A DNA stretch of 58,512 nucleotides, filler included, from Ionaspis alba (lineage: Eukaryota): NCBI GenBank assembly GCA_964255285.1. It is 7 parts of 7 records of this genome, joined end to end, with 100 filler letters (N's around TTAATTAATTAA, not from the genome) between each part and the next. Parts side by side here need not be neighbours in the genome. Positions count along the whole stretch, not along the records: positions 1 to 8,307 come from CAXUUL010000757.1; 6 more parts are not named here. One strand, given 5' to 3'. Positions 154 to 14,300 of this stretch are shown piece by piece; position 1 is the first letter of the stretch; every line of letters starts with the position of its first letter. The translations under genes and the position numbers were made by a program. The notes below the pieces were generated by a model. It saw only the letters and a program-made list of their open reading frames with translations, was not told where the DNA came from and did not search any database.

Positions 154-796
154 GCGAGTGAGAAGGTGGAGTAGGGGATCGAGATTTAGGGACTGGGGAG
201 GGAGGTCGGGGAAGAGAGTCATGGCTTGGGATAGCGGCGCCTGAAGGCATAGTGGATTGTAGGTTTTGATGTGGCTGGCGACATCAGTGTGACGACAGTG
301 AGGGTCGTGGTCGGTGGTGCTCTGGACAGATGCAGGGAAAAGATTTGGTGGGAGTGCTGTTCGTGATGGTTTGCCATCAAGACGCAGCTACAGGGATCAT
401 GTTGTTCAAGCAAGAACGGGTAAGACAATGACGGTTGATACAACATCTTTCGATGTTCATGCAGTAATGTCCTGAACCTTCACGTGACTATGATAAACCT
501 ATGCGAAATGGAAGACCCCTAGGCCACGAGTTCTTGGCACAGGGTCTCAGCCTCATATTTTGCCAAGCTTTTATAGCGCATCATTCTAGAGCTCAACTTC
601 ACGACTTTGATGCAATTAGAACTTGTGCCGTGGGCTACGTGTAACACAACTCTCTTTGCACAGAGAGAGGGAGAGAGTTCTACCACTCAACAAGCTCTTT
701 CAAACCCGATACCAAACGCGCTCAGAACCCATCCCATCTCTTTGAAGCGGGCTAAATCTCGGAACTGCAACCAACTCACCGCAACCATCCTCAGCC

Positions 797-2830
797 ATGG
801 AGGTCTCGAGAGGCCCTCCCAGGGTCAAGAACAAGGCCCCCGCGCCTGTTCAAATCTCCGCAGAGCAACTCCTGCGCGAGGCTGTCGACCGCCAGGAGCC
901 CGGTCTCCAAGCACCGACACAACGATTCGCCGATCTCGAAGAACTCCATGAATTCCAAGGGCGCAAACGTAAGGAGTTCGAGGACTACATCCGGCGGAAT
1001 CGGGTTAATATGAATAATTGGATGCGGTATGCTCAGTGGGAATTAGAGCAAAAAGAATACCGTCGGGCAAGGTCGGTGTTCGAAAGGGCGCTCGATGTGG
1101 ACTCGACAGCTGTGGTGTTGTGGATACGGTATATCGAGGCAGAGATGAAAACGAGAAACATCAACCACGCACGAAACTTGCTAGATCGAGCAGTCACAAT
1201 CCTACCCCGGGTCGACAAGCTCTGGTACAAATACGTCTACATGGAAGAAATGCTCGGCAACATTCCCGGCACCCGACAAGTCTTCGAGCGGTGGATGTCC
1301 TGGGAGCCCGACGAAGCAGCCTGGAGCGCCTACATCAAGCTCGAAAAACGGTACAGCGAATTTAACCGCGCGCGCGCCATCTTCGAGCGCTTCACAATGG
1401 TGCACCCAGAGCCCCGCAACTGGATCAAATGGGCGCGCTTCGAAGAAGAAAATGGAACCAGCGACTCCGTGCGCACGGTCTTCGGCACCGCGATCGAAAC
1501 CCTCGGCGACGCCTTCATGGACGAACGCCTCTTCATCGCCTACGCCCGCTACGAAGCCAAGCTCAAAGAACTCGACCGTGCTCGCGCTATCTACAAATAC
1601 GCGCTTGACCGCCTTCCTCGATCTAAAGCCACGACCCTGCATAAAGCCTACACGACCTTCGAAAAGCAGTTCGGCGACCGCACGGGTATCGAAGACGTGA
1701 TCCTCTCCAAGCGCCGCGTCACCTACGACGCACTCGTCAAGGAATCCCCCAAGAACTACGACGCCTGGATCGATTGGGCCCGGCTGGAAGAAACTGGCGG
1801 GGATCCCGCCCGTGTCCGCGAGGTCTACGAGAAGGCCATCGCACAGCTGCCGCCGACGCACGAAAAACGCCATTGGCGCCGGTATATCTATCTCTGGATT
1901 TTCTACGCCCTGTACGAGGAGCTGGACACGCGGGACGTGGAGCGCGCGCGGCAGATCTACGCCGCAGCGCTGAAGCTGATCCCGCACAAGAAATTCACCT
2001 TCGCGAAGCTGTGGTTGCTGAAAGCGCAATTCGAGATCCGGCAACAGCAATTAGGTACTGCGCGCAAGACGCTGGGACAGGCGATTGGGCTTTGTCCCAA
2101 GGATAAGCTGTTCAAGGGCTATATTGCGCTGGAGCTGAAACTTTTCGAGTTCGCGAGGTGTCGCTTGTTGTATGAGAAGCATGTTGCGTGGAACCCCGCG
2201 AATAGTCAGGCGTGGATTGCGTTTGCGGAGTTGGAGAGGGGGCTCGATGATTTGGAAAGGGCGAGGGCGATTTTTGAAATTGCGGCTGAGCAGCCGGTGT
2301 TGGATATGCCGGAGTTGGTGTGGAAGGCGTATATTGATTTTGAGGAGGAGGAGGCGGAGTATGAGCGTACGAGGGGGTTGTATGAGAGGCTTTTGGAGAA
2401 GACGGATCATGTTAAGGTGTGGATTAGTTATGCGCATTTTGAGATCAATGTCCCGGATGAGGAGGCGCAGGAGGAGGAGGCGGGTGAGGATGAGGAGGCG
2501 CCAGTTAGTGAGGCCGCGAAAGGGAGGGCGAGGGAGGTCTTTAAGAGGGCCTATTCGAGTATGAAGGAAAAGGGTTTGAAGGAGGAGAGGGTGGCGTTGT
2601 TGAATGCGTGGAGGTCGTTTGAGGGTACGCATGGTGCTGAGGAGGACGTGGAGAGGGTGGAGAAACAGATGCCGAGGAAGGTTAAGAAGAGGAGGAAGTT
2701 GGATGATGATAGCTTTGAGGAGTATATGGATTATGTGTTCCCGGCGGATGATGAGAGCGCGGCCAAGATCTCGAGGTTGTTGGCTATGGCGGCCGAGTGG
2801 AAGAAGGGGCAGGTTGAAGGCGGTAGCTGA
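797..2830 (+). CDS. CLF1: Pre-mRNA splicing factor Clf1/Syf3 (crooked neck, HAT repeats)
   Basis: Intronless 677-aa ORF. N-terminus [21 protein letters not shown] and tandem HAT repeats ([20 protein letters not shown]) are typical of Crn/Clf1. Confidence 0.97.
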
Positions 2831-4652: not shown

Positions 4653-5589
4653 ATGTCTCTCCCCAACTCCAACTATCCCCATCGAAACCTTTCAATCCCA
4701 TACTCTTCTCTTACACCGCTAAATACCCTCGACGTCCATTTCCCTGCTCCATCTTCAGACAATGATACCTCCAAGCTCTGGATCATGTAGAGCACCCTCC
4801 TTGATTTTCAGAGCCTTAGTAACATAAATCACAAGCTACATTCATGGCGGCGCGTGGCGCGACCCCCTCAAAACCTCTACTTCCATTTCCGCTACACTCA
4901 AACATCTGGATCCGACGAAGCTTCCAATCGCTGGAATAGCCTCCCTGAATTACCGCCTTTCACCGTACCCATCGCATCCTACACATCCTAGTCATCCACA
5001 AGACAAGTCGCGGAATGCCAAACACCCCGACCACATCAAGGATATTGTAAGGGCTATCAGATGGCTGCAGAAAGAGTACAAGTTTGGGGAGCGGTATGTA
5101 CTCGTAGGACATAGTTGTGGGGCTACGTTAGCGATGCAGGTGGCTATGGGTGTGTGGAATACGCAGGGCTTCGACGAAGAGGAAAACGGGAAAAAGGAGT
5201 TTGAGATGCCGGCTGCGGCGGTGGGTGTAGCAGGGATATATGACATGAGACTTTTGCGGGATAACTTTCTCAACATACCTGTCTACGAAGAGTTTATCAA
5301 AGCAGCCTTCGGTGAAAGTGAAGAGGAGTGGGATCGAGCAAGTCCAACAACTGGAAGTTATGCAAAGAGTTGGCCAAAAGCGCAAGTGCTGATTCTGGCG
5401 CATAGTAAGGAAGACGAGCTGGTGGATTGGGCGCAGGTCGAGGCGATGGAGAAAAGTTTGAAGAAGCAAAAGAAGGATGAAAGGAGTGATGAGGTGCTTG
5501 AATTGAAAGGGAAGCATGATGAGATATGGGGGAAAGGGACTGAAATGGCGAGGGCGATTGAGACTGCGCTTAAGATGCTCGCGGCTTGA
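4653..5589 (+). CDS. Alpha/beta hydrolase, kynurenine formamidase (Bna7-like)
   Basis: ATG 4653, intron 4787-4835. Oxyanion motif YIHGGAWRDP, LNYRLSP, nucleophile elbow GHSCG, C-terminal HSKEDELV and GKHDEIW. Confidence 0.85.
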
Positions 5590-5733: not shown

Positions 5734-8210
5734 TTACGGCAAACCTCGACCACTATTGATAGCGTCCGCGACCTGGCTCGTATTGGGACGATTCTCTATT
5801 ACGCTGTCAGCCAGAAGGCCAAACAATTTCTAATCAGATGCTTACCTGCATAGCGCTCATAGCTATCCATGTAAAGATCGTCAGTGCTAGTCGTCGCCTT
5901 CACTGCTCCATTGTCCTCCACAGCCTGAACCCACTTGGCCCATCTACTTCCTTCTTCAGGGTCTGGCCAGCCCCGATACGGCTTGAGCACCCTCCTGAAT
6001 CGTAGCAGCCATGGTGCAAGCTGAACATCAACAAAGGAGATTTTGGCTCCAAGGAAGAAAGGACCTGTGGCGTGAGCAGCATCGGCAAGTTTCGTGATCT
6101 CAGCTTTCAATTCAGAAGCATGTTTGACCTGAGCTGCAGCTTCCTGGGCTTGGAGGTATGCATAGAATGCTGGGACGATCTTGCGATTCACCTGGGGATG
6201 TATTTAGCAAGCCATCGCCTACTGCAACCATGGGTCGAACATACATGATCTGCCCAGAGACGACTGTGAGCTCGAGCTTTAGGATCGCCCTGTGGCAATA
6301 TGGGTTCTCCAAGGTTCAAGTCCTCCAGCTGTGCGTCAAATCAGTGTATGTTCTCGATGATAGGGCCGAACTACATACATATTCCATAAGAACAGTACTT
6401 TCATGGCATGCCCAGTCGCCATGTCGAAGCGCCGGTACTAGTCCTTGAGGGCTGACCTCTAATAGAGATTGTGGCTTCTTGTATGGATCGACCTCGATAT
6501 ACTGATAGTCAAGGTTTTTCAGTTCCAAGGCAATCCACACACGTTGAACGAAAGGGCTGTAATACGAGTGTCAGAACATCTATCCGAACCATGATGCATA
6601 GACAATCATTATGGGAGACATGAATCTGATGAAAGCGTACCAGAAGCAACTTCCGAAAATCTTCAAGTCGTTCTCCTTGGCATGTCTCTTCACGGTGGAC
6701 AAAGCTAGTCCGGTCGCCTTCTTATGGTAGGTCTTCTGTTCCGTTTTGTTTGCATCAGCATTTTCCTCCACTAGGCTGCCGAAGTACGGTATATAGCGAC
6801 GTAGATTCATGATGTTGCAAGCAAGGTATTGACACCAGAGCAGAACGGAAGGGTTAGAGAAGTGGGGTTATGTATGACGTTGTAGTAGGCGCGGGTTTAA
6901 CTCGCTTCCAGCTCGGGGTGCAACAAGTGGCACAAAAGCAGCACGTATGTACAAATCGCACTAAAGCACTCACCTCAATTTTCTTCTTCTCCTTCTCCTC
7001 CTTGGCCATATGCCGCTGAATACTGTTCTTCTTGACACGGTCGCTTTCCTCAAGTGTATGTTTGTGAGGTCCTGCGACACCGTCTCCTTTGCCATTCCCC
7101 CCATTTCCATTGACTCGCTGTATAGTGTAGTATCTTTCCCCGTTAGCTCCTGGCACATCAGAACCATTCGCGGTGGTTGGTGGAATAGCACCAAAGGGCT
7201 GGGGCTGCTGCAAAGATTGTCCGAAAGTTTCTCCAGAAGTGAAGAAATTGGTGGCCTGATCCTCGGCGGTGCCATTGAATTCCTGGCCCATCATCGTCCT
7301 TGCCCCTGGGAAGTACTCTGTGATCTTGATTTTCACATCGCATAGATCCCGTTCCCGAGCTTGCCGTTTCCGTTTCTTTTTATTTGGGTCATCTGATTTG
7401 GGCGTTCCAGGAGGTCGTCCTTTCAATCTGCAGTCCCAGTAATGAGAAACGAATGGCTTGCGTTTGTAGCGCTGTGTGGAACGATGAGAGTAGATATTGT
7501 CAACATGGGGAAAATAGGTGAGGAAGCTGAGTCTAAGGTCAGCGGAATCAGGCATCAGAATGCAATCGCTCTTACTCATCCTCTGACAAAGTTATGGTAT
7601 CATCGACATGAAAGAGGCGCTCTCTCCACGATTGTAGATCTGGAGGATCCGGTATCATTTTCAAGTCCGCAAAATGGCCATCTTTCTTGCCTTGTCCACT
7701 GGCAGAAGGCGTCATCTGCATGAGATCGTTCTCCTGCCCAATCCTTTCGAGGGCATCATGTTGTAAGTAGTTATGGTGCGATAATTGGGCTTGTGGTGTC
7801 AAGATGCCAAACTGCCCAACTGGCTGAACAGTATTGTTCTGCTGATGTCGCGGTGGACCAGCGTGAGTTCGAATCTCCTGGAATCGCGGCGGAGGATTCC
7901 TGTGAATGAAACCATTTCCGAGATGTAATTGTTGTTGTCCATGATTAGGATCTTCGAGTTGTTGATTGAAGTGCTGTGTGAACGCATCTCCAGAATCGAG
8001 TGCTTGCAAGCTGGGATCTAACTGTGACGCAAAGGTATTGGATTCTTGATGAGCGGGAGTATGAGCAAAACCCGCAAATTGATGTTGAAGGTGTCGCGAT
8101 GCCGAATCGAAAGGTTGTGTAGAATGAGCAGGTGCGACTTCCTCCATCATACCACCACCACTGCCCGGTAGCGGCAGCCCGATTATTTCGCCCGCTTGAC
8201 GTGGAACCAT
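5734..8210 (-). CDS. Predicted fusion: Q/H-rich N-terminus + WRKY/GCM1/FAR1-like zinc-finger domain + omega-like glutathione transferase
   Basis: Exons about 8210-7576, 7526-6974, 6735-6641, 6556-6379, 6328-6245, 6191-5846, 5796-5734, with compatible GT-AG phases. GST motifs GSCFCPFVQRVWIALE, GLVPAL, HESTVLMEY, SFVDVQLAPW. Upstream domain HYWDC..CDVKIKI..HKH. The GST call is firm; the fusion depends on one intron (6736-6973). Confidence 0.75.
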
Positions 8211-8307: not shown

Positions 8308-8407
8308 NNNNNNNNNNNNNNNNNNNNNNNNNNNNNNNNNNNNNNNNNNNNTTAATTAATTAANNNNNNNNNNNNNNNNNNNNNNNNNNNNNNNNNNNNN
8401 NNNNNNN
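8308..8407. other. Artificial scaffold joiner (N44-TTAATTAATTAA-N44); also at 16702-16801, 25089-25188, 33465-33564, 41829-41928, 50193-50292
   Basis: Identical 100-nt spacers with stop codons in all six frames, recurring about every 8.4 kb. Several genes are cut at these points. Confidence 0.97.
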
Positions 8408-11195: not shown

Positions 11196-11300
11196 GCTCG
11201 ACCTATTCACGGCTGCATTCCAAACAAAAGCCAAGGGAGAATACCAATCAAAAGTATCGTCCAAGTGAGCTAGGCAGGCAGAGTTAGGACGGTGACTATC

Positions 11301-14300
11301 ATGGATATCTTTGTGCGGAACATACCAGACCAGGCCAGTAACAAAAACCTGGAGATATTCTTTCGGAAGCAGTTCCGACCCTTCAGCATTGACGATTTCG
11401 CTTGCCAGAAGCTAAAAACGCGAGGATGTGCGATTCTGACGGTGCTAGATGCCCAGAAAGCCCAGCGCTTCCTCGACATCTACGCATCGGCCTCCGAGAA
11501 AGGTACAGTGCGCACAAGGGCACATGCACTGAAATACATGGACAGAGATCTGTTCTGCTCCCCGAGCAAACACAAGCCCGATGAGATGTTACTGCAGACC
11601 TTACGCAAAGAGGTAAAGGACAAAGGGAACCAGGCCCGCAGCAAGGCATCAGCAAGTGTTTCCGCTGAGAAGGTTGACCGTGAATTCGAGTATACCTGGG
11701 TTCGATGTGGTTTTTGGGACTACCAAACGTCCGACCTAGTCTTCGTCTCTCAGTTCGTGGACCGAAGAATGGGTTCCATCGCATTCGGGAAGAAGAATTT
11801 GGCGTTAATGGCTTATTCTGACAGTACTACCCCCGTGACGTACCGACTTGATGTTCCCTATTCAAGCGTCCAGTCCATTACAACCGGAAGCTTCCAAGAC
11901 CCTTCGCTTACCATTACTCTGTCTGAAGCTCCAAGAGTCTATCAGCAGTTTAAGGGAAATCCCAACTCCATTCAATCTTGGTTTGATGCTCTCGGATTAG
12001 ATCCGAAAGCGCAAGCCAAACCCAAACGGAGAAGAGTGGCAAGCCTTGGTGGACCTCATGAGCGTATCATAAGCAGTTGTTTTGTGTACCGAGCATTGAT
12101 TTCGGACCCTAGCAAGATCCGTTCCATTGGCCTACTACTTCGAAAAGGCTGGGAGATGCCGCCAAGTATCCCGTGGCCTACTTCTGTTGTTGCGCCTAGT
12201 TCATTGTATGCGACAGAAATGGATCTGCTCATTTCAACCCTGTGCAATCGATATAACTCGTTCACTTTCGGTCTCCAGTTTCAGGTGCAGAGACTTGCTC
12301 AGAATGGTTATCTGGCTCCAGCTCGTGTGCTTGAGCTACTACCCCATATTTTGCAGATTTTCCGTCATTCGGGCGGCTTCACAGCTGCTGAGGCTCTTCG
12401 AAAACTGTCTAGGCAGCTCCCATTTGCGGGCCCCAATGTCGACGGCGAAGTGTTTGCCACAGAACGTATAGGGAAGCTCGTCAGAGAAAACGAGAAGGCT
12501 AGCACACGAGAGCTGGCTCACAACTTCAGCGTTACGAAGCAACACCCACACATCGGTCTTGTTCACAAGGCATTGGTAACGCCTGCCGGCGTTTACCTCG
12601 AAGGACCGGAACCGGAGACGAAAAATCGAGTGTTACGGGCGTATTCCGAACATGCAGACCATTTCATCCGTGTCACCTTCTCGGGTGAAGACGGAGAGCG
12701 AATGGCCTTCGACCGTTTTGTGTCCCTCGAGGAGATTTTCCATTCGAGGTTCAAAAACGTACTTGACGGAGTCATTTCTATAGCAGGTCGTCGCTTCGAA
12801 TTCCTTGGCTTTTCGCATTCGTCATTACGGGACCAGACTTGCTGGTTCATGGCTCCTTTCGAGGACAACGGTGTGCTGCTGAATGCAACAGCCGTTATTG
12901 CCAACCTCGGTAATTTCTCTGCGATTCGATCTCCGGCGAAATGTGCTGCGAGAATCGGCCAGGCTTTTTCCAACACCGACGGAGCCGTGAGAATATCTCC
13001 AGCGATTGTCGACGAGATCCCGGACGTCGAGAGAAATCGGAGGGTCTTTTCCGATGGCGTAGGAACAATCTCGGCGGAGACTCTGGCCATGCTCTGGAAA
13101 GAGTATGCTCCTGCGAGAAAGTCGAAACCGACGTTATATCAGATCAGATTCGCAGGTATGTGACTACATCCGTAACTTCAAACCAGCCATGAAACCTTTT
13201 ATGATCGAGCATGACCCCTGTCTCGCATCCAAGGAAGCGGCCTAATTCTTTTCTCTGGAGCGACTGTGATGTAGGACTTGGTACTGACCTTCTGTTGCGT
13301 AGGAGCCAAGGGGATGATATCTCTCGACACGAGGCTTGAAGGCGAGGCCTTGTTGCTTCGCCCATCCATGATTAAGTTTACGGGCTCGAACGCGTCAGAT
13401 ATCGAAATCTGTGGATCGGCCTCTCGACCACTTCCGATGTATCTCAATCGCCAATACATCAAAATCATGGAAGACCTGGGAGTTGACCCTAGCGTATTTA
13501 TGGAACTGCAGAACGCTGCCGTGGAGCGGCTTCGTCGCTCCACACTTTCTGCGGTCAATGCCGCCAGCTTTTTGGAGCGTGAACTCGTTGGCAAAACAGC
13601 CCGAGTGCCTTGGCTCATTCGGAAGCTCTACTACATAGGATTTGAATTCCTGGAGGACCCTTTCCTTCGAGGAGTAGTCGAGCTGGCCGTACTGTCACAA
13701 CTTCGGGAGCTGAAGCACCGTTCTCGCATCTTCGTGGAGCAAGGTGTAACGCTATACGGCATCATGGACGAGATGGACACTCTTGCTGAGGGTGAAATCT
13801 ATTGCCGCACTGATAAAGAGGTTATCATCGGCAAAGTCACAATCACCCGGGCGCCGGCATTACATCCAGGAGACATACAAGTTGCCAACGCAGTTGATGT
13901 TCCCATTGAATCTCCACTCAATGCTCTGCACAACTGCATCGTGTTCAGTCAACAGGGCCAGCGAGATCTCCCAAGTCAATTGAGCGGTGGTGACCTTGAT
14001 GGAGACATCTACAGTGTGATTTATGATCCCCGTCTGCTACCTCCACGCGTTGTCGAACCCGCAGATTATCCGAGAGTCGCCCCAAAGGACATAGGCAGGC
14101 TGGTTACGAAGAAGGACATGACTGATTTCTTCATCGACTTCATGGAGAACGATCAGCTGGGGAGGATTGCTACTATTCATATGCAGCTGGCAGATCGCAG
14201 CGATGGAGGAACCCAGCACCCAGATTGTATCACCTTGGCTGAAATGCATTCGACTGCAGTGGATTTTTCCAAGACGGGAATCCCAGTGTGTAGCATTCTT

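What the first reader, a model, noticed from the sequence alone, without database searches (positions are those of the whole stretch)
5734..8210. WRKY/GCM1/FAR1-like zinc-finger domain spliced to an omega-like Cys-GST: candidate glutathione/redox-sensing transcription factor
Seen: the ORF track splits this into unrelated pieces, but a phase-0 intron (GTGAGT donor at 6973, GCTGAT branch, CAG acceptor at 6736-6738) joins ..KEKKKIE to KTYHKKATG..GSCFCPFVQR in frame. The upstream exon has HYWDC-x29-CDVKIKI..YTIQRV..HKH with a basic KKKRKR stretch, preceded by a Q/H/P-rich low-complexity region. Known: a C..C..HxH beta-sheet zinc finger defines the WRKY-GCM1 superfamily (Aft1/Rcs1, FAR1, MULE transposase DNA-binding domains); a CPF active site marks omega/Cys-GSTs; yeast Aft1 is controlled in trans by glutathione-binding glutaredoxins Grx3/4. 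Inference: a domesticated transposase-type DNA-binding domain and a GSH-binding thiol sensor in one chain, which automated annotation would likely label only 'glutathione transferase'.
Basis: partly seen in the sequence, partly recalled or inferred. Interest (0 to 1): 0.8.

Follow-up and report, generated by a model that had tools for sequence, protein, structure and literature searches.

The report
Zinc-finger domain fused to glutathione transferase
This fungal gene joins a strongly conserved, probably zinc- and DNA-binding domain that no database names to a working-looking glutathione transferase, a combination kept across filamentous ascomycetes and so far labelled only 'glutathione transferase'.

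Summary
Window 8210-5734 (minus strand) is one seven-exon gene of 650 codons.

The fusion is real:
- A GST follows the N-domain on the same strand in 33 of 33 related loci that have enough downstream DNA.
- Donor and acceptor sit at the same codons in 24 of 25 loci.
- Five loci have no junction intron and read straight through. Two of them are whole-gene single ORFs.
- Intron-free contigs encode the spliced form.

The N-domain matches no Pfam family and no PDB sequence. It has invariant C..C..HxH in 173 of 173 sequences. It folds as a four-stranded sheet whose best structural matches are WRKY domains (Z 5.1), followed by AFT2, FLYWCH and GCM. These scores are weak but consistent. The GST keeps an invariant CPF active site.

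Most likely this is a nuclear DNA-binding protein with a built-in Cys-GST. Redox sensing and a transposase origin are untested. No RNA data exist for this organism, and I found no paper on the family.

The parts
5734..8210 (-). Whole coding region. Seven exons: 8210-7576, 7526-6974, 6735-6641, 6556-6379, 6328-6245, 6191-5846, 5795-5734. Total 1953 nt, 650 aa plus stop.
   Evidence: no internal stop, six GT..AG introns of 49, 238, 84, 50, 53 and 50 nt; 436 of 650 residues identical to P0005 (Trapelia coarctata, 618 aa).
7689..8210 (-). N-terminal low-complexity region rich in Q, H and P (about the first 174 residues). Poorly conserved; absent in the Morchella ortholog.
   Evidence: composition; no Pfam match; P0239 starts directly at the conserved domain; consensus mostly x here.
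6974..7688 (-). Conserved N-domain, interrupted by the 49-nt intron 7575-7527. Order of elements: helix, strand, helix, then a four-stranded sheet, then two helices. A candidate Cys2His2 zinc module of WRKY-GCM1 type.
   Evidence: invariant residues; AlphaFold2 models, pLDDT 72.0 and 76.9; WRKY at the top: Z 5.1, rmsd 2.4, 60 of 61 residues.
7430..7432 (-). Cys32 of exon 2 (in YWDC), at the end of predicted strand 2. Putative zinc ligand 1. Trp two residues upstream.
   Evidence: Cys in 173 of 173 sequences; strand at residues 25-32. W30 at 90% or more.
7340..7342 (-). Cys62 (in LCDVKIKI), just before predicted strand 3. Putative zinc ligand 2.
   Evidence: 173 of 173; strand at residues 64-71.
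7364..7381 (-). KKKRKR basic stretch inside the 29-residue insert between the two Cys. Looks like a nuclear localisation signal.
   Evidence: sequence. R52, R54 and R57 invariant; K49, K51 and K53 at 90% or more. The NLS reading is inference.
7058..7066 (-). His154-Lys-His156 (HKH). Putative zinc ligands 3 and 4, 15 residues after strand 4 and just before a helix.
   Evidence: both His in 173 of 173; strand at 132-139, helix at 158-164.
6736..6973 (-). Junction intron, phase 0, 238 nt. Donor GTGAGT, branch CTGAT, acceptor CAG. It joins the N-domain to the GST.
   Evidence: The same donor and acceptor positions occur in 24 of 25 related loci. The intron is absent in L025, L027, L028, L031 and L033.
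6808..6810 (-). In-frame ATG inside the junction intron, 25 codons before KTYH. A possible start for a GST-only product. The ancestral ATG position reads AAT (Asn, in ..ENADANKTEQ) here.
   Evidence: 21 of 25 related loci have an ATG 7-12 codons before KTYH; L007, L012 and L023 have none.
5734..6735 (-). Omega-like Cys-GST (exons 3-7). It has an N-terminal extension KTYHKKATG.., the active site CFCPFVQR (Cys codon split 6642-6641 / 6556), and the GST_N and GST_C domains.
   Evidence: GST_N_3 1.5e-18, GST_C_2 5e-10; best PDB match 6srb_A at 7e-24, including the N-terminal extension. C, P and F invariant in 79 of 79 full-length relatives.

Best explanation
This is one gene for a 650-residue, four-part protein.

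Parts, in order:
1. A disordered Q/H/P-rich head.
2. A conserved domain of about 220 residues. It is a four-stranded sheet held by Cys2-His2 (probably zinc), of the WRKY-GCM1 kind. It has a basic, NLS-like insert between the two Cys and a helical N-terminal extension.
3. A basic helical linker.
4. An intact omega-class GST with a catalytic Cys (CPF).

Shown here: the fusion, its conservation across Pezizomycotina classes, the invariant ligand set, the predicted sheet topology, and the intact GST motifs.

Inferred:
- The protein goes to the nucleus and binds a fixed DNA motif through strands 1-2 (YSHRSTQ.YKRK, ..YWDCR.KGR).
- It pairs up through the GST fold, as GSTs do.
- The GST Cys, by forming a mixed disulfide with glutathione or by binding a ligand, tunes DNA binding or activation. 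The head would serve as the activation region.

A second, GST-only product from an ATG inside the junction intron is likely in most species. It is doubtful here, because the ancestral ATG is not in frame in this window.
For: Fusion:
- GST follows directly downstream on the same strand in 33 of 33 loci with enough DNA. The other 4 of 37 end within 322 nt.
- A donor directly follows the K/R-rich tail in 24 of 25 loci plus the window. AG precedes K[TS]YH in all 26, with introns of 85-572 nt in all three relative frames.
- Continuous ORFs cross the junction in L025, L027, L028, L031 and L033. L027 (729 codons) and L031 (867 codons) are whole-gene single ORFs with GST Pfam domains.
- P0018 (615 aa) lies on a 2026-bp contig, yet maps to genomic L010 as six blocks spanning 2415 nt, so that contig lacks introns.
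- L012 has a stop 2 codons before KTYH, so its GST has no start of its own.
- By my count, 91 of the 120 listed relatives carry GST Pfam domains.
- Range: Morchella (Pezizomycetes), Trichothecium (Sordariomycetes), Trapelia (Lecanoromycetes), Aspergillus, Coccidioides, Sclerotinia.

Domain:
- C32, C62, H154 and H156 are invariant in 173 of 173 sequences.
- Strand positions match the WRKY-GCM1 rule for the two Cys (rule read in PMC1702500).
- W lies two residues before Cys 1.
- Top structural hit is AtWRKY1 6j4e_B: Z 5.1, rmsd 2.4, 60 of 61 residues. The nine best rows of the second-look alignment (pdb_via) are all WRKY, Z 4.0-5.1.
- With the full domain, WRKY33, WRKY1, AFT2, FLYWCH, WRKY4, GCM and one more WRKY are all in the top 50 of 48,161 chains.

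GST: CPF is invariant in 79 of 79.
Against: - Fold scores are low. Z is 3.0-5.1, where the tool warns that Z under 8 may reflect only a common arrangement. Propeller blades and viral proteins score alike. Foldseek E is at least 0.45.
- No sequence or profile match to WRKY, FAR1, AFT, FLYWCH, GCM or ALS2CR8.
- The HxH sits 15 residues beyond strand 4 here and much further in Morchella, unlike classical WRKY.
- I could not read model coordinates, so the four ligands were not shown to meet.
- Zinc binding, DNA binding, nuclear location, pairing and any redox control are untested.
- The conserved internal ATG (21 of 25 loci) shows that the GST may often act alone.
- L027 has Asp in place of the catalytic Cys, so catalysis is not needed in every lineage.
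- In the one paper that names an ortholog, it is listed among GSTs and is not differentially expressed (passage only).
Confidence: 0.5

Rival explanations
1. A targeted enzyme, not a regulator. The zinc domain and NLS-like insert only carry a thiol transferase / deglutathionylase (or dehydroascorbate reductase) to the nucleus, chromatin or a nucleic acid, where the GST does the work.
For: CPF and the other GST motifs are invariant or nearly so in 79 full-length relatives, so catalysis is under selection. The GST part is close to a solved stand-alone fungal enzyme (6srb_A, 7e-24). Databases and the one paper seen treat it as a GST.
Against: L027 keeps the whole architecture but has Asp at the catalytic Cys. 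The N-domain is at least as conserved as the GST: exon 2 is 45-83% identical to the 144 other sequences of alignment A1. That fits a module with a specific ligand of its own better than a mere address tag.
Confidence: 0.25
2. The Cys2His2 domain is not a nucleic-acid binder. It is a protein-binding module or a zinc-thiolate redox switch that controls, or is repaired by, the attached GST.
For: Fold matches are weak and shared with many four-stranded sheets such as propeller blades. There is no sequence link to any DNA-binding family. The HxH placement is atypical.
Against: WRKY, AFT2, FLYWCH and GCM, all DNA binders of one superfamily, fill 7 of the top 50 among 48,161 chains. Strand 1 and the stretch after Cys 1 are invariant and basic/polar, which is where PMC1702500 places the DNA contacts of this fold. 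The nearest named language-model clusters are CARF/ALS2CR8, at 0.83-0.88, a lead only.
Confidence: 0.17
3. Two separate neighbouring genes. The fused models would then be artefacts of gene predictors that join an upstream orphan gene to a stand-alone GST with its own ATG.
For: An ATG lies 7-12 codons before KTYH in 21 of 25 loci. Stand-alone fungal GSTs start a few residues before the same motif (6srb_A). By my count, 28 of 120 listed relatives are N-domain-only models. No RNA run exists for this organism.
Against: Five loci have no stop between the parts. Intron-free contigs encode the joined form. L007, L012 and L023 lack any internal ATG. The unspliced tails after the donor are unconserved and run 4-103 codons. 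One fused model bears the label TPA_exp.
Confidence: 0.03

Closest known systems
WRKY-GCM1 superfamily, insert-containing family (FAR1/MULE DNA-binding domains; yeast Aft1/Rcs1, Aft2, Candida Rbf1), as defined in PMC1702500 (passages read)
   Same: Four-stranded sheet. [quoted passage not shown] An HxH pair. An aromatic residue two positions before Cys 1. An insert between the two Cys. An N-terminal helical extension. AFT2 (4lmg) aligns over 83-92 residues at Z 3.4-3.6.
   Different: No detectable sequence similarity. The HxH is displaced from strand 4 and leads into a helix. No transposase partner was seen. It is fused to a GST, an architecture that paper does not mention (0 hits for 'glutathione' or 'GST' in its text).
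WRKY-GCM1 domain fused to isochorismatase in filamentous fungi (PMC1702500, passage read)
   Same: A fungal zinc-finger DNA-binding domain joined to an enzyme fold, which the authors propose could act as a small-molecule sensor.
   Different: A different enzyme (GST versus isochorismatase). The relation between the two zinc domains was not tested here.
Yeast Aft1/Aft2 controlled by glutaredoxins Grx3/4 (recalled, not from a call)
   Same: A WRKY-GCM1-type DNA binder whose activity depends on glutathione-binding thioredoxin-fold proteins.
   Different: There the control acts between separate proteins and through an Fe-S cluster. Here the thioredoxin-fold partner is a CPF GST in the same chain, and no Fe-S motif was seen.
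Stand-alone fungal omega-class GST, PDB 6srb_A
   Same: The N-terminal extension (..H..ATG.A..TV..H), the C-P-F/Y active site and the GST_N/GST_C folds. E 7e-24 against the family profile.
   Different: 261 residues with no N-terminal zinc domain.
Animal CARF / ALS2CR8 domain, PF15299
   Same: The nearest named clusters by protein-language-model features in two queries: 0.88 and 0.88; 0.86, 0.84 and 0.83.
   Different: No hmmscan match at E up to 10. All scores are under 0.9, which the tool calls a lead only. That CARF is a DNA-binding factor is recalled, not from a call.

Membership tests
WRKY-GCM1 superfamily | Four-stranded antiparallel sheet core | tested here: met
   AlphaFold2 models: strands 12-19, 25-32, 64-71, 132-139 and 46-53, 59-66, 99-105, 172-178. 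These are predicted, not solved, structures.
WRKY-GCM1 superfamily | [quoted passage not shown] | tested here: met
   C32 ends strand 25-32. C62 lies 2 residues before strand 64-71. Both are invariant in 173 of 173 sequences.
WRKY-GCM1 superfamily | Two His at the end of strand 4 that complete the zinc site | tested here: inconclusive
   H154-x-H156 is invariant but lies 15 residues after strand 4 and before a helix. WRKY alignments reach model residues 156-164.
WRKY-GCM1 superfamily | Conserved aromatic or hydrophobic residue two positions before the first Cys | tested here: met
   W30 at 90% or more of 145 sequences.
WRKY-GCM1 superfamily | Structural similarity to solved members | tested here: inconclusive
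   WRKY is the top hit (Z 5.1, rmsd 2.4, 60 of 61). The nine best second-look (pdb_via) rows are WRKY. WRKY, AFT2, FLYWCH and GCM are in the top 50 of 48,161. All Z values are under 8 and Foldseek E is at least 0.45.
WRKY-GCM1 superfamily | Sequence or profile similarity to the Pfam families WRKY, FAR1, AFT, FLYWCH or GCM | tested here: not met
   0 families for exon 2 at E up to 1. None of these among 53 members at E up to 10. No PDB sequence match at E up to 10.
WRKY-GCM1 superfamily | Binds zinc and DNA | not testable with these tools
   Needs metal analysis and DNA-binding assays.
Insert-containing WRKY-GCM1 family (FAR1/AFT type) | Insert between the two Cys, and an N-terminal helical extension | tested here: met
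   29 residues between C32 and C62. Helices 14-22 and 32-41 precede strand 1, with pLDDT about 95.
Omega-class (Cys) GST | GST_N and GST_C domains | tested here: met
   GST_N_3 1.5e-18 and GST_C_2 5e-10, both above the curated cut-offs.
Omega-class (Cys) GST | Catalytic Cys in a C-P-F motif at the start of helix 1, plus an N-terminal extension | tested here: met
   CFCPFVQR is formed across intron 3. C, P and F are invariant in 79 of 79. The extension aligns to 6srb_A and to human GSTO1 entries.
Omega-class (Cys) GST | Thiol transferase / dehydroascorbate reductase activity | not testable with these tools
   Needs an enzyme assay.
ALS2CR8 / CARF (PF15299) | Match to the Pfam model | tested here: not met
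   No hit at E up to 10. There is only a language-model resemblance of 0.83-0.88.

The most novel reading that the evidence does not exclude
A one-chain glutathione- or redox-gated transcription factor that dates back to the common ancestor of filamentous ascomycetes. An omega-class Cys-GST would directly switch a previously unnamed branch of WRKY-GCM1 zinc fingers, possibly kin to the animal CARF/ALS2CR8 DNA-binding domain. A second GST-only product from an intron-embedded start would act as competitor or partner.
Probability: 0.2. Interest if true: 0.8.

Novelty: new variant of a known kind. Interest (0 to 1): 0.6.

Why it matters
The gene was found, fused, in named species of Pezizomycetes, Sordariomycetes and Lecanoromycetes. 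It was also found in Aspergillus, Coccidioides, dermatophytes, Sclerotinia and many lichen fungi. Its N-domain is 45-83% identical across the 144 other sequences of alignment A1.

No Pfam model covers the domain. None of the nine literature searches found a description.

If it binds DNA, fungal transcription-factor catalogues that rely on known domains would miss a conserved regulator. That regulator would link glutathione chemistry to gene control within a single chain, where yeast is recalled to use separate proteins. Even if it is only a nucleus-targeted GST, it defines a new conserved domain and a clear case for correcting annotation.

Tried and rejected
- RNA evidence. No RNA holder was listed for this stretch. 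The two runs laid were DNA-like contigs. One holds the whole stretch and may be the source; the other holds pieces. No joints were seen. This says nothing about expression.
- Domain-domain docking. N-domain against GST of the Morchella ortholog gave 'no answer', score 0.00. It is not evidence either way.
- Own genome. No whole genome is held for the window, so copy number in this fungus is unknown.
- Earlier notes of this scan. Nothing to show.
- Sequence links. Pfam at E up to 10 on 53 members gave only scattered single hits. The most frequent was TADA2A-like, in 4 of 53 at 0.026, which I take as chance. The PDB profile search of the N-domain gave 0 hits.
- Distant relatives. The profile search listed only the best 120 of 1488, all of the same family, so the weak tail could not be seen.
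- ALS2CR8/CARF. Two literature searches found nothing. I could not build a profile-profile comparison because no member sequence was available from a tool.
- Zinc-site geometry. Model coordinates are not exposed, so the ligand distances could not be measured.
- Literature on named orthologs. TERG_07290 gave 0 papers. SS1G_06623 gave one table row among GSTs, not differentially expressed.
Full report
**What is there**

On the minus strand an ATG at 8210 opens a reading frame that runs through seven exons to TAA at 5736-5734. The exons are 8210-7576, 7526-6974, 6735-6641, 6556-6379, 6328-6245, 6191-5846 and 5795-5734. Joined in a script, they give 1953 nt with no internal stop. The six introns, of 49, 238, 84, 50, 53 and 50 nt, all begin GT and end AG.

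The 650-residue product is 67% identical along its length to an annotated 618-aa protein of the lichen fungus Trapelia coarctata, and 54% identical to a 612-aa Aspergillus flavus protein.

- Exon 2 ends ..KEKKKIE at 6974, followed by GTGAGT.
- A TGCTGAT branch lies at 6760-6754.
- CAG at 6738-6736 precedes KTYHKKATG.
- The CPF cysteine codon is itself split by the next intron.

**Is the fusion real?**

No RNA run is available for this organism. The two runs I laid were DNA contigs. The case therefore rests on comparison, and it is strong.

A search with exon 2 found 697 longer proteins at E up to 0.001. By my count from the table, 91 of the 120 listed carry GST Pfam domains, 28 have no Pfam domain, and one carries only other domains. 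The junction reads ..KK.Q|KTYHKKA.G in models from many classes.

I fetched 37 related loci from metagenome contigs.
- A GST lies directly downstream on the same strand in 33 of them. The other four end 78-322 nt after the domain.
- In 25 loci both junction motifs could be placed. In 24 of those, and in the window, a phase-0 donor directly follows the K/R-rich tail. The donors are GTGAGT, GTAAGT, GTATGT, GTAAGC, GTTAGT, GTACGC, GTAGGT and GTAAGA. L023 is the exception.
- AG directly precedes K[TS]YH in all 26.
- Intron length varies from 85 to 572 nt, and the two exons lie in all three relative frames. L016/L017 and L011/L015 give identical values and may be duplicates.
- Five loci have no junction intron and read straight through. 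L025, L028 and L033 run on to the next intron. L027 (729 codons) and L031 (867 codons) are whole-gene single ORFs with GST_N and GST_C matches.

P0018, a 615-aa fused protein, sits on a 2026-bp contig. It maps onto genomic locus L010 as six blocks spanning 2415 nt. That contig therefore lacks the introns and behaves like a spliced transcript. P0030 (616 aa on 2096 bp) is a similar case. One fused dermatophyte model bears the label TPA_exp.

I put the two-gene reading at about 3%.

**A second product?**

In the GST frame, 21 of 25 loci have an ATG 7-12 codons before KTYH (M-S/A/T-D..). L035 has one 22 codons upstream. L007, L012 and L023 have none, and L012 has a stop two codons upstream.

A solved stand-alone fungal GST (6srb_A) begins eight residues before the same motif. 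The GST was therefore probably once a gene of its own. In most species it may still be made alone from a start inside the junction intron.

In this window the corresponding codon reads AAT (..ENADANKTEQ). The nearest in-frame ATG is 25 codons upstream, at 6810-6808. Species without the internal start still keep a conserved GST, which argues that the fused form is functional.

**The N-domain**

Exon 1 and exon 2 match no Pfam family at E up to 1. 53 family members scanned at E up to 10 gave nothing relevant. A profile of the domain finds no PDB sequence.

An exhaustive phmmer search found 346 cluster representatives at E up to 0.001 and 320 at E up to 1e-10.

In 173 aligned sequences, C32, C62, H154 and H156 are invariant. 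So is H14, and H28 is at 98%. About 18 residues are invariant and a further 45 nearly so in 145 sequences. These include W30, two residues before the first Cys, the run YSHRSTQ.YK, and CR.KGR.

AlphaFold2 gave two models:
- Exon 2 with 145 aligned sequences gave pLDDT 72. It has four strands (12-19, 25-32, 64-71, 132-139) and two C-terminal helices.
- The complete domain, taken from the intron-free L027 ORF, gave pLDDT 76.9, with about 95 over the first 70 residues. It adds a helix-strand-helix extension before strand 1.

**Fold comparison**

WRKY4, FLYWCH, a further WRKY, AFT2 (83 residues aligned) and WRKY33 are also listed. In the second-look alignment of Foldseek's own matches (pdb_via), the nine best rows are all WRKY domains, Z 4.0-5.1, each aligned over nearly its full length.

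The second model gives:

| Match | Z | Residues aligned |
|---|---|---|
| WRKY33 | 4.2 | 75 of 79 |
| WRKY1 | 4.1 | 60 of 61 |
| AFT2 | 3.4 | 92 of 120 |
| FLYWCH | 3.4 | 74 of 87 |
| WRKY4 | 3.3 | 65 of 71 |
| GCM | 3.1 | 85 of 157 |
| another WRKY | 3.0 | 56 of 57 |

All seven are within the top 50.

These scores are low. The tool warns that Z under 8 may reflect only a common arrangement. Propeller blades and small viral proteins score alike. Foldseek E-values are 0.45 or worse.

Three things make the match more than chance. One superfamily recurs across both models. Each small target is covered almost completely. And the ligand positions fit the rule read in PMC1702500: Cys at the end of strand 2, Cys at the start of strand 3, an aromatic residue two positions before the first Cys, an insert between the two Cys, and an N-terminal helical extension.

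The departure is the HxH. It lies 15 residues after strand 4 here, and after a much longer loop in Morchella, and it leads into a helix. I could not read coordinates, so the zinc site itself is unverified. I put WRKY-GCM1-type fold at about 0.7.

**The GST**

GST_N_3 (1.5e-18) and GST_C_2 (5e-10) both pass their cut-offs. The family profile matches a stand-alone fungal GST structure at 7e-24, and human GSTO1 and plant Cys-GSTs more weakly. C, P and F of CFCPF are invariant in 79 full-length relatives, along with other conserved GST-domain residues.

Two variants stand out. L027 has Asp at the catalytic position. A Phaeomoniella protein reads CPFC and carries a glutaredoxin Pfam hit.

**How it most likely works**

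Shown: one chain with a variable Q/H/P-rich head, a highly conserved Cys2His2 sheet domain with a KKKRKR insert, a basic helix, and an intact Cys-GST. The combination is kept from Morchella to lichens, moulds and dermatophytes.

Inferred:
- The insert is a nuclear signal.
- Strands 1-2 read a fixed DNA motif, which is where this fold contacts DNA according to PMC1702500.
- The GST pairs two chains.
- The CPF thiol, by glutathionylation or ligand binding, tunes the DNA-binding or activating function.

Rivals are a nucleus-targeted enzyme (0.25), a non-DNA zinc module or redox switch (0.17), and two separate genes (0.03). A docking test of the two domains gave no answer.

**Known or new?**

PMC1702500 describes WRKY-GCM1 domains fused to isochorismatase in filamentous fungi as possible sensors. 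It has no occurrence of 'glutathione' or 'GST' (passages read).

Nine literature searches found no description of this family. The one paper naming an ortholog lists it among GSTs, not differentially expressed (passage only). These searches cover open-access papers only.

The nearest named language-model clusters are animal CARF/ALS2CR8 (0.83-0.88). That is a lead I could not test.

I rate this a new variant of a known kind: an unnamed branch of a known zinc-finger fold in a new, ancient fusion with a Cys-GST.

Noticed in passing
window 8308-8407: Two runs of 44 N flank TTAATTAATTAA (8352-8363), a linker that stops all six frames. It begins 98 nt upstream of the ATG, so the promoter of this gene is cut off and what lies beyond may not be contiguous. 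The Logan contig of run X1 extends 127 nt past 8290.
   Followed up: partly
L027:2416-4581: An intron-free whole-gene version (722 aa from its first Met). The GST active site reads ..GDCEDAYSQR, with Asp in place of the catalytic Cys, and the GST part is much more diverged (32% identity).
   Followed up: partly
P0053 (Phaeomoniella chlamydospora, 517 aa): This family member has CPFC instead of CFCPF, a glutaredoxin Pfam hit (PF00462) and a different, Q-rich linker. It may be a variant active site or a faulty gene model.
   Followed up: no
P0239 (Morchella importuna, 463 aa): The earliest-branching member seen lacks the Q/H/P-rich head altogether. It has a short loop between strands 3 and 4, but a G/M-rich loop of about 65 residues before the HxH. 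The low-complexity parts are therefore lineage-specific additions.
   Followed up: partly
Aspergillus and Penicillium relatives (P0043, P0050, P0058, P0061, P0065, P0067, P0073, P0077, P0081, P0088): The annotated linkers between ..KKK and KTYH are short, variable in length, stay in frame and end in a conserved Met (..TRTM[SP]..). This suggests read-through without an intron in these genera. I did not see their DNA.
   Followed up: no
window 746-2827 (+), 4828-5586 (+), 11274-13160 (+): The neighbours are ordinary genes: a HAT-repeat splicing factor (PRP39/Syf1-type repeats), a BD-FAE-type alpha/beta hydrolase that converges on the 3' end of this gene, and an RNA-dependent RNA polymerase with the fungal PH-like domain. 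No transposase was seen among them.
   Followed up: partly
P0038 (1028 aa) and P0075 (1096 aa): Two relatives carry extra Pfam domains (acetate kinase; hexapeptide repeats). These are most likely gene models merged with a neighbour.
   Followed up: no
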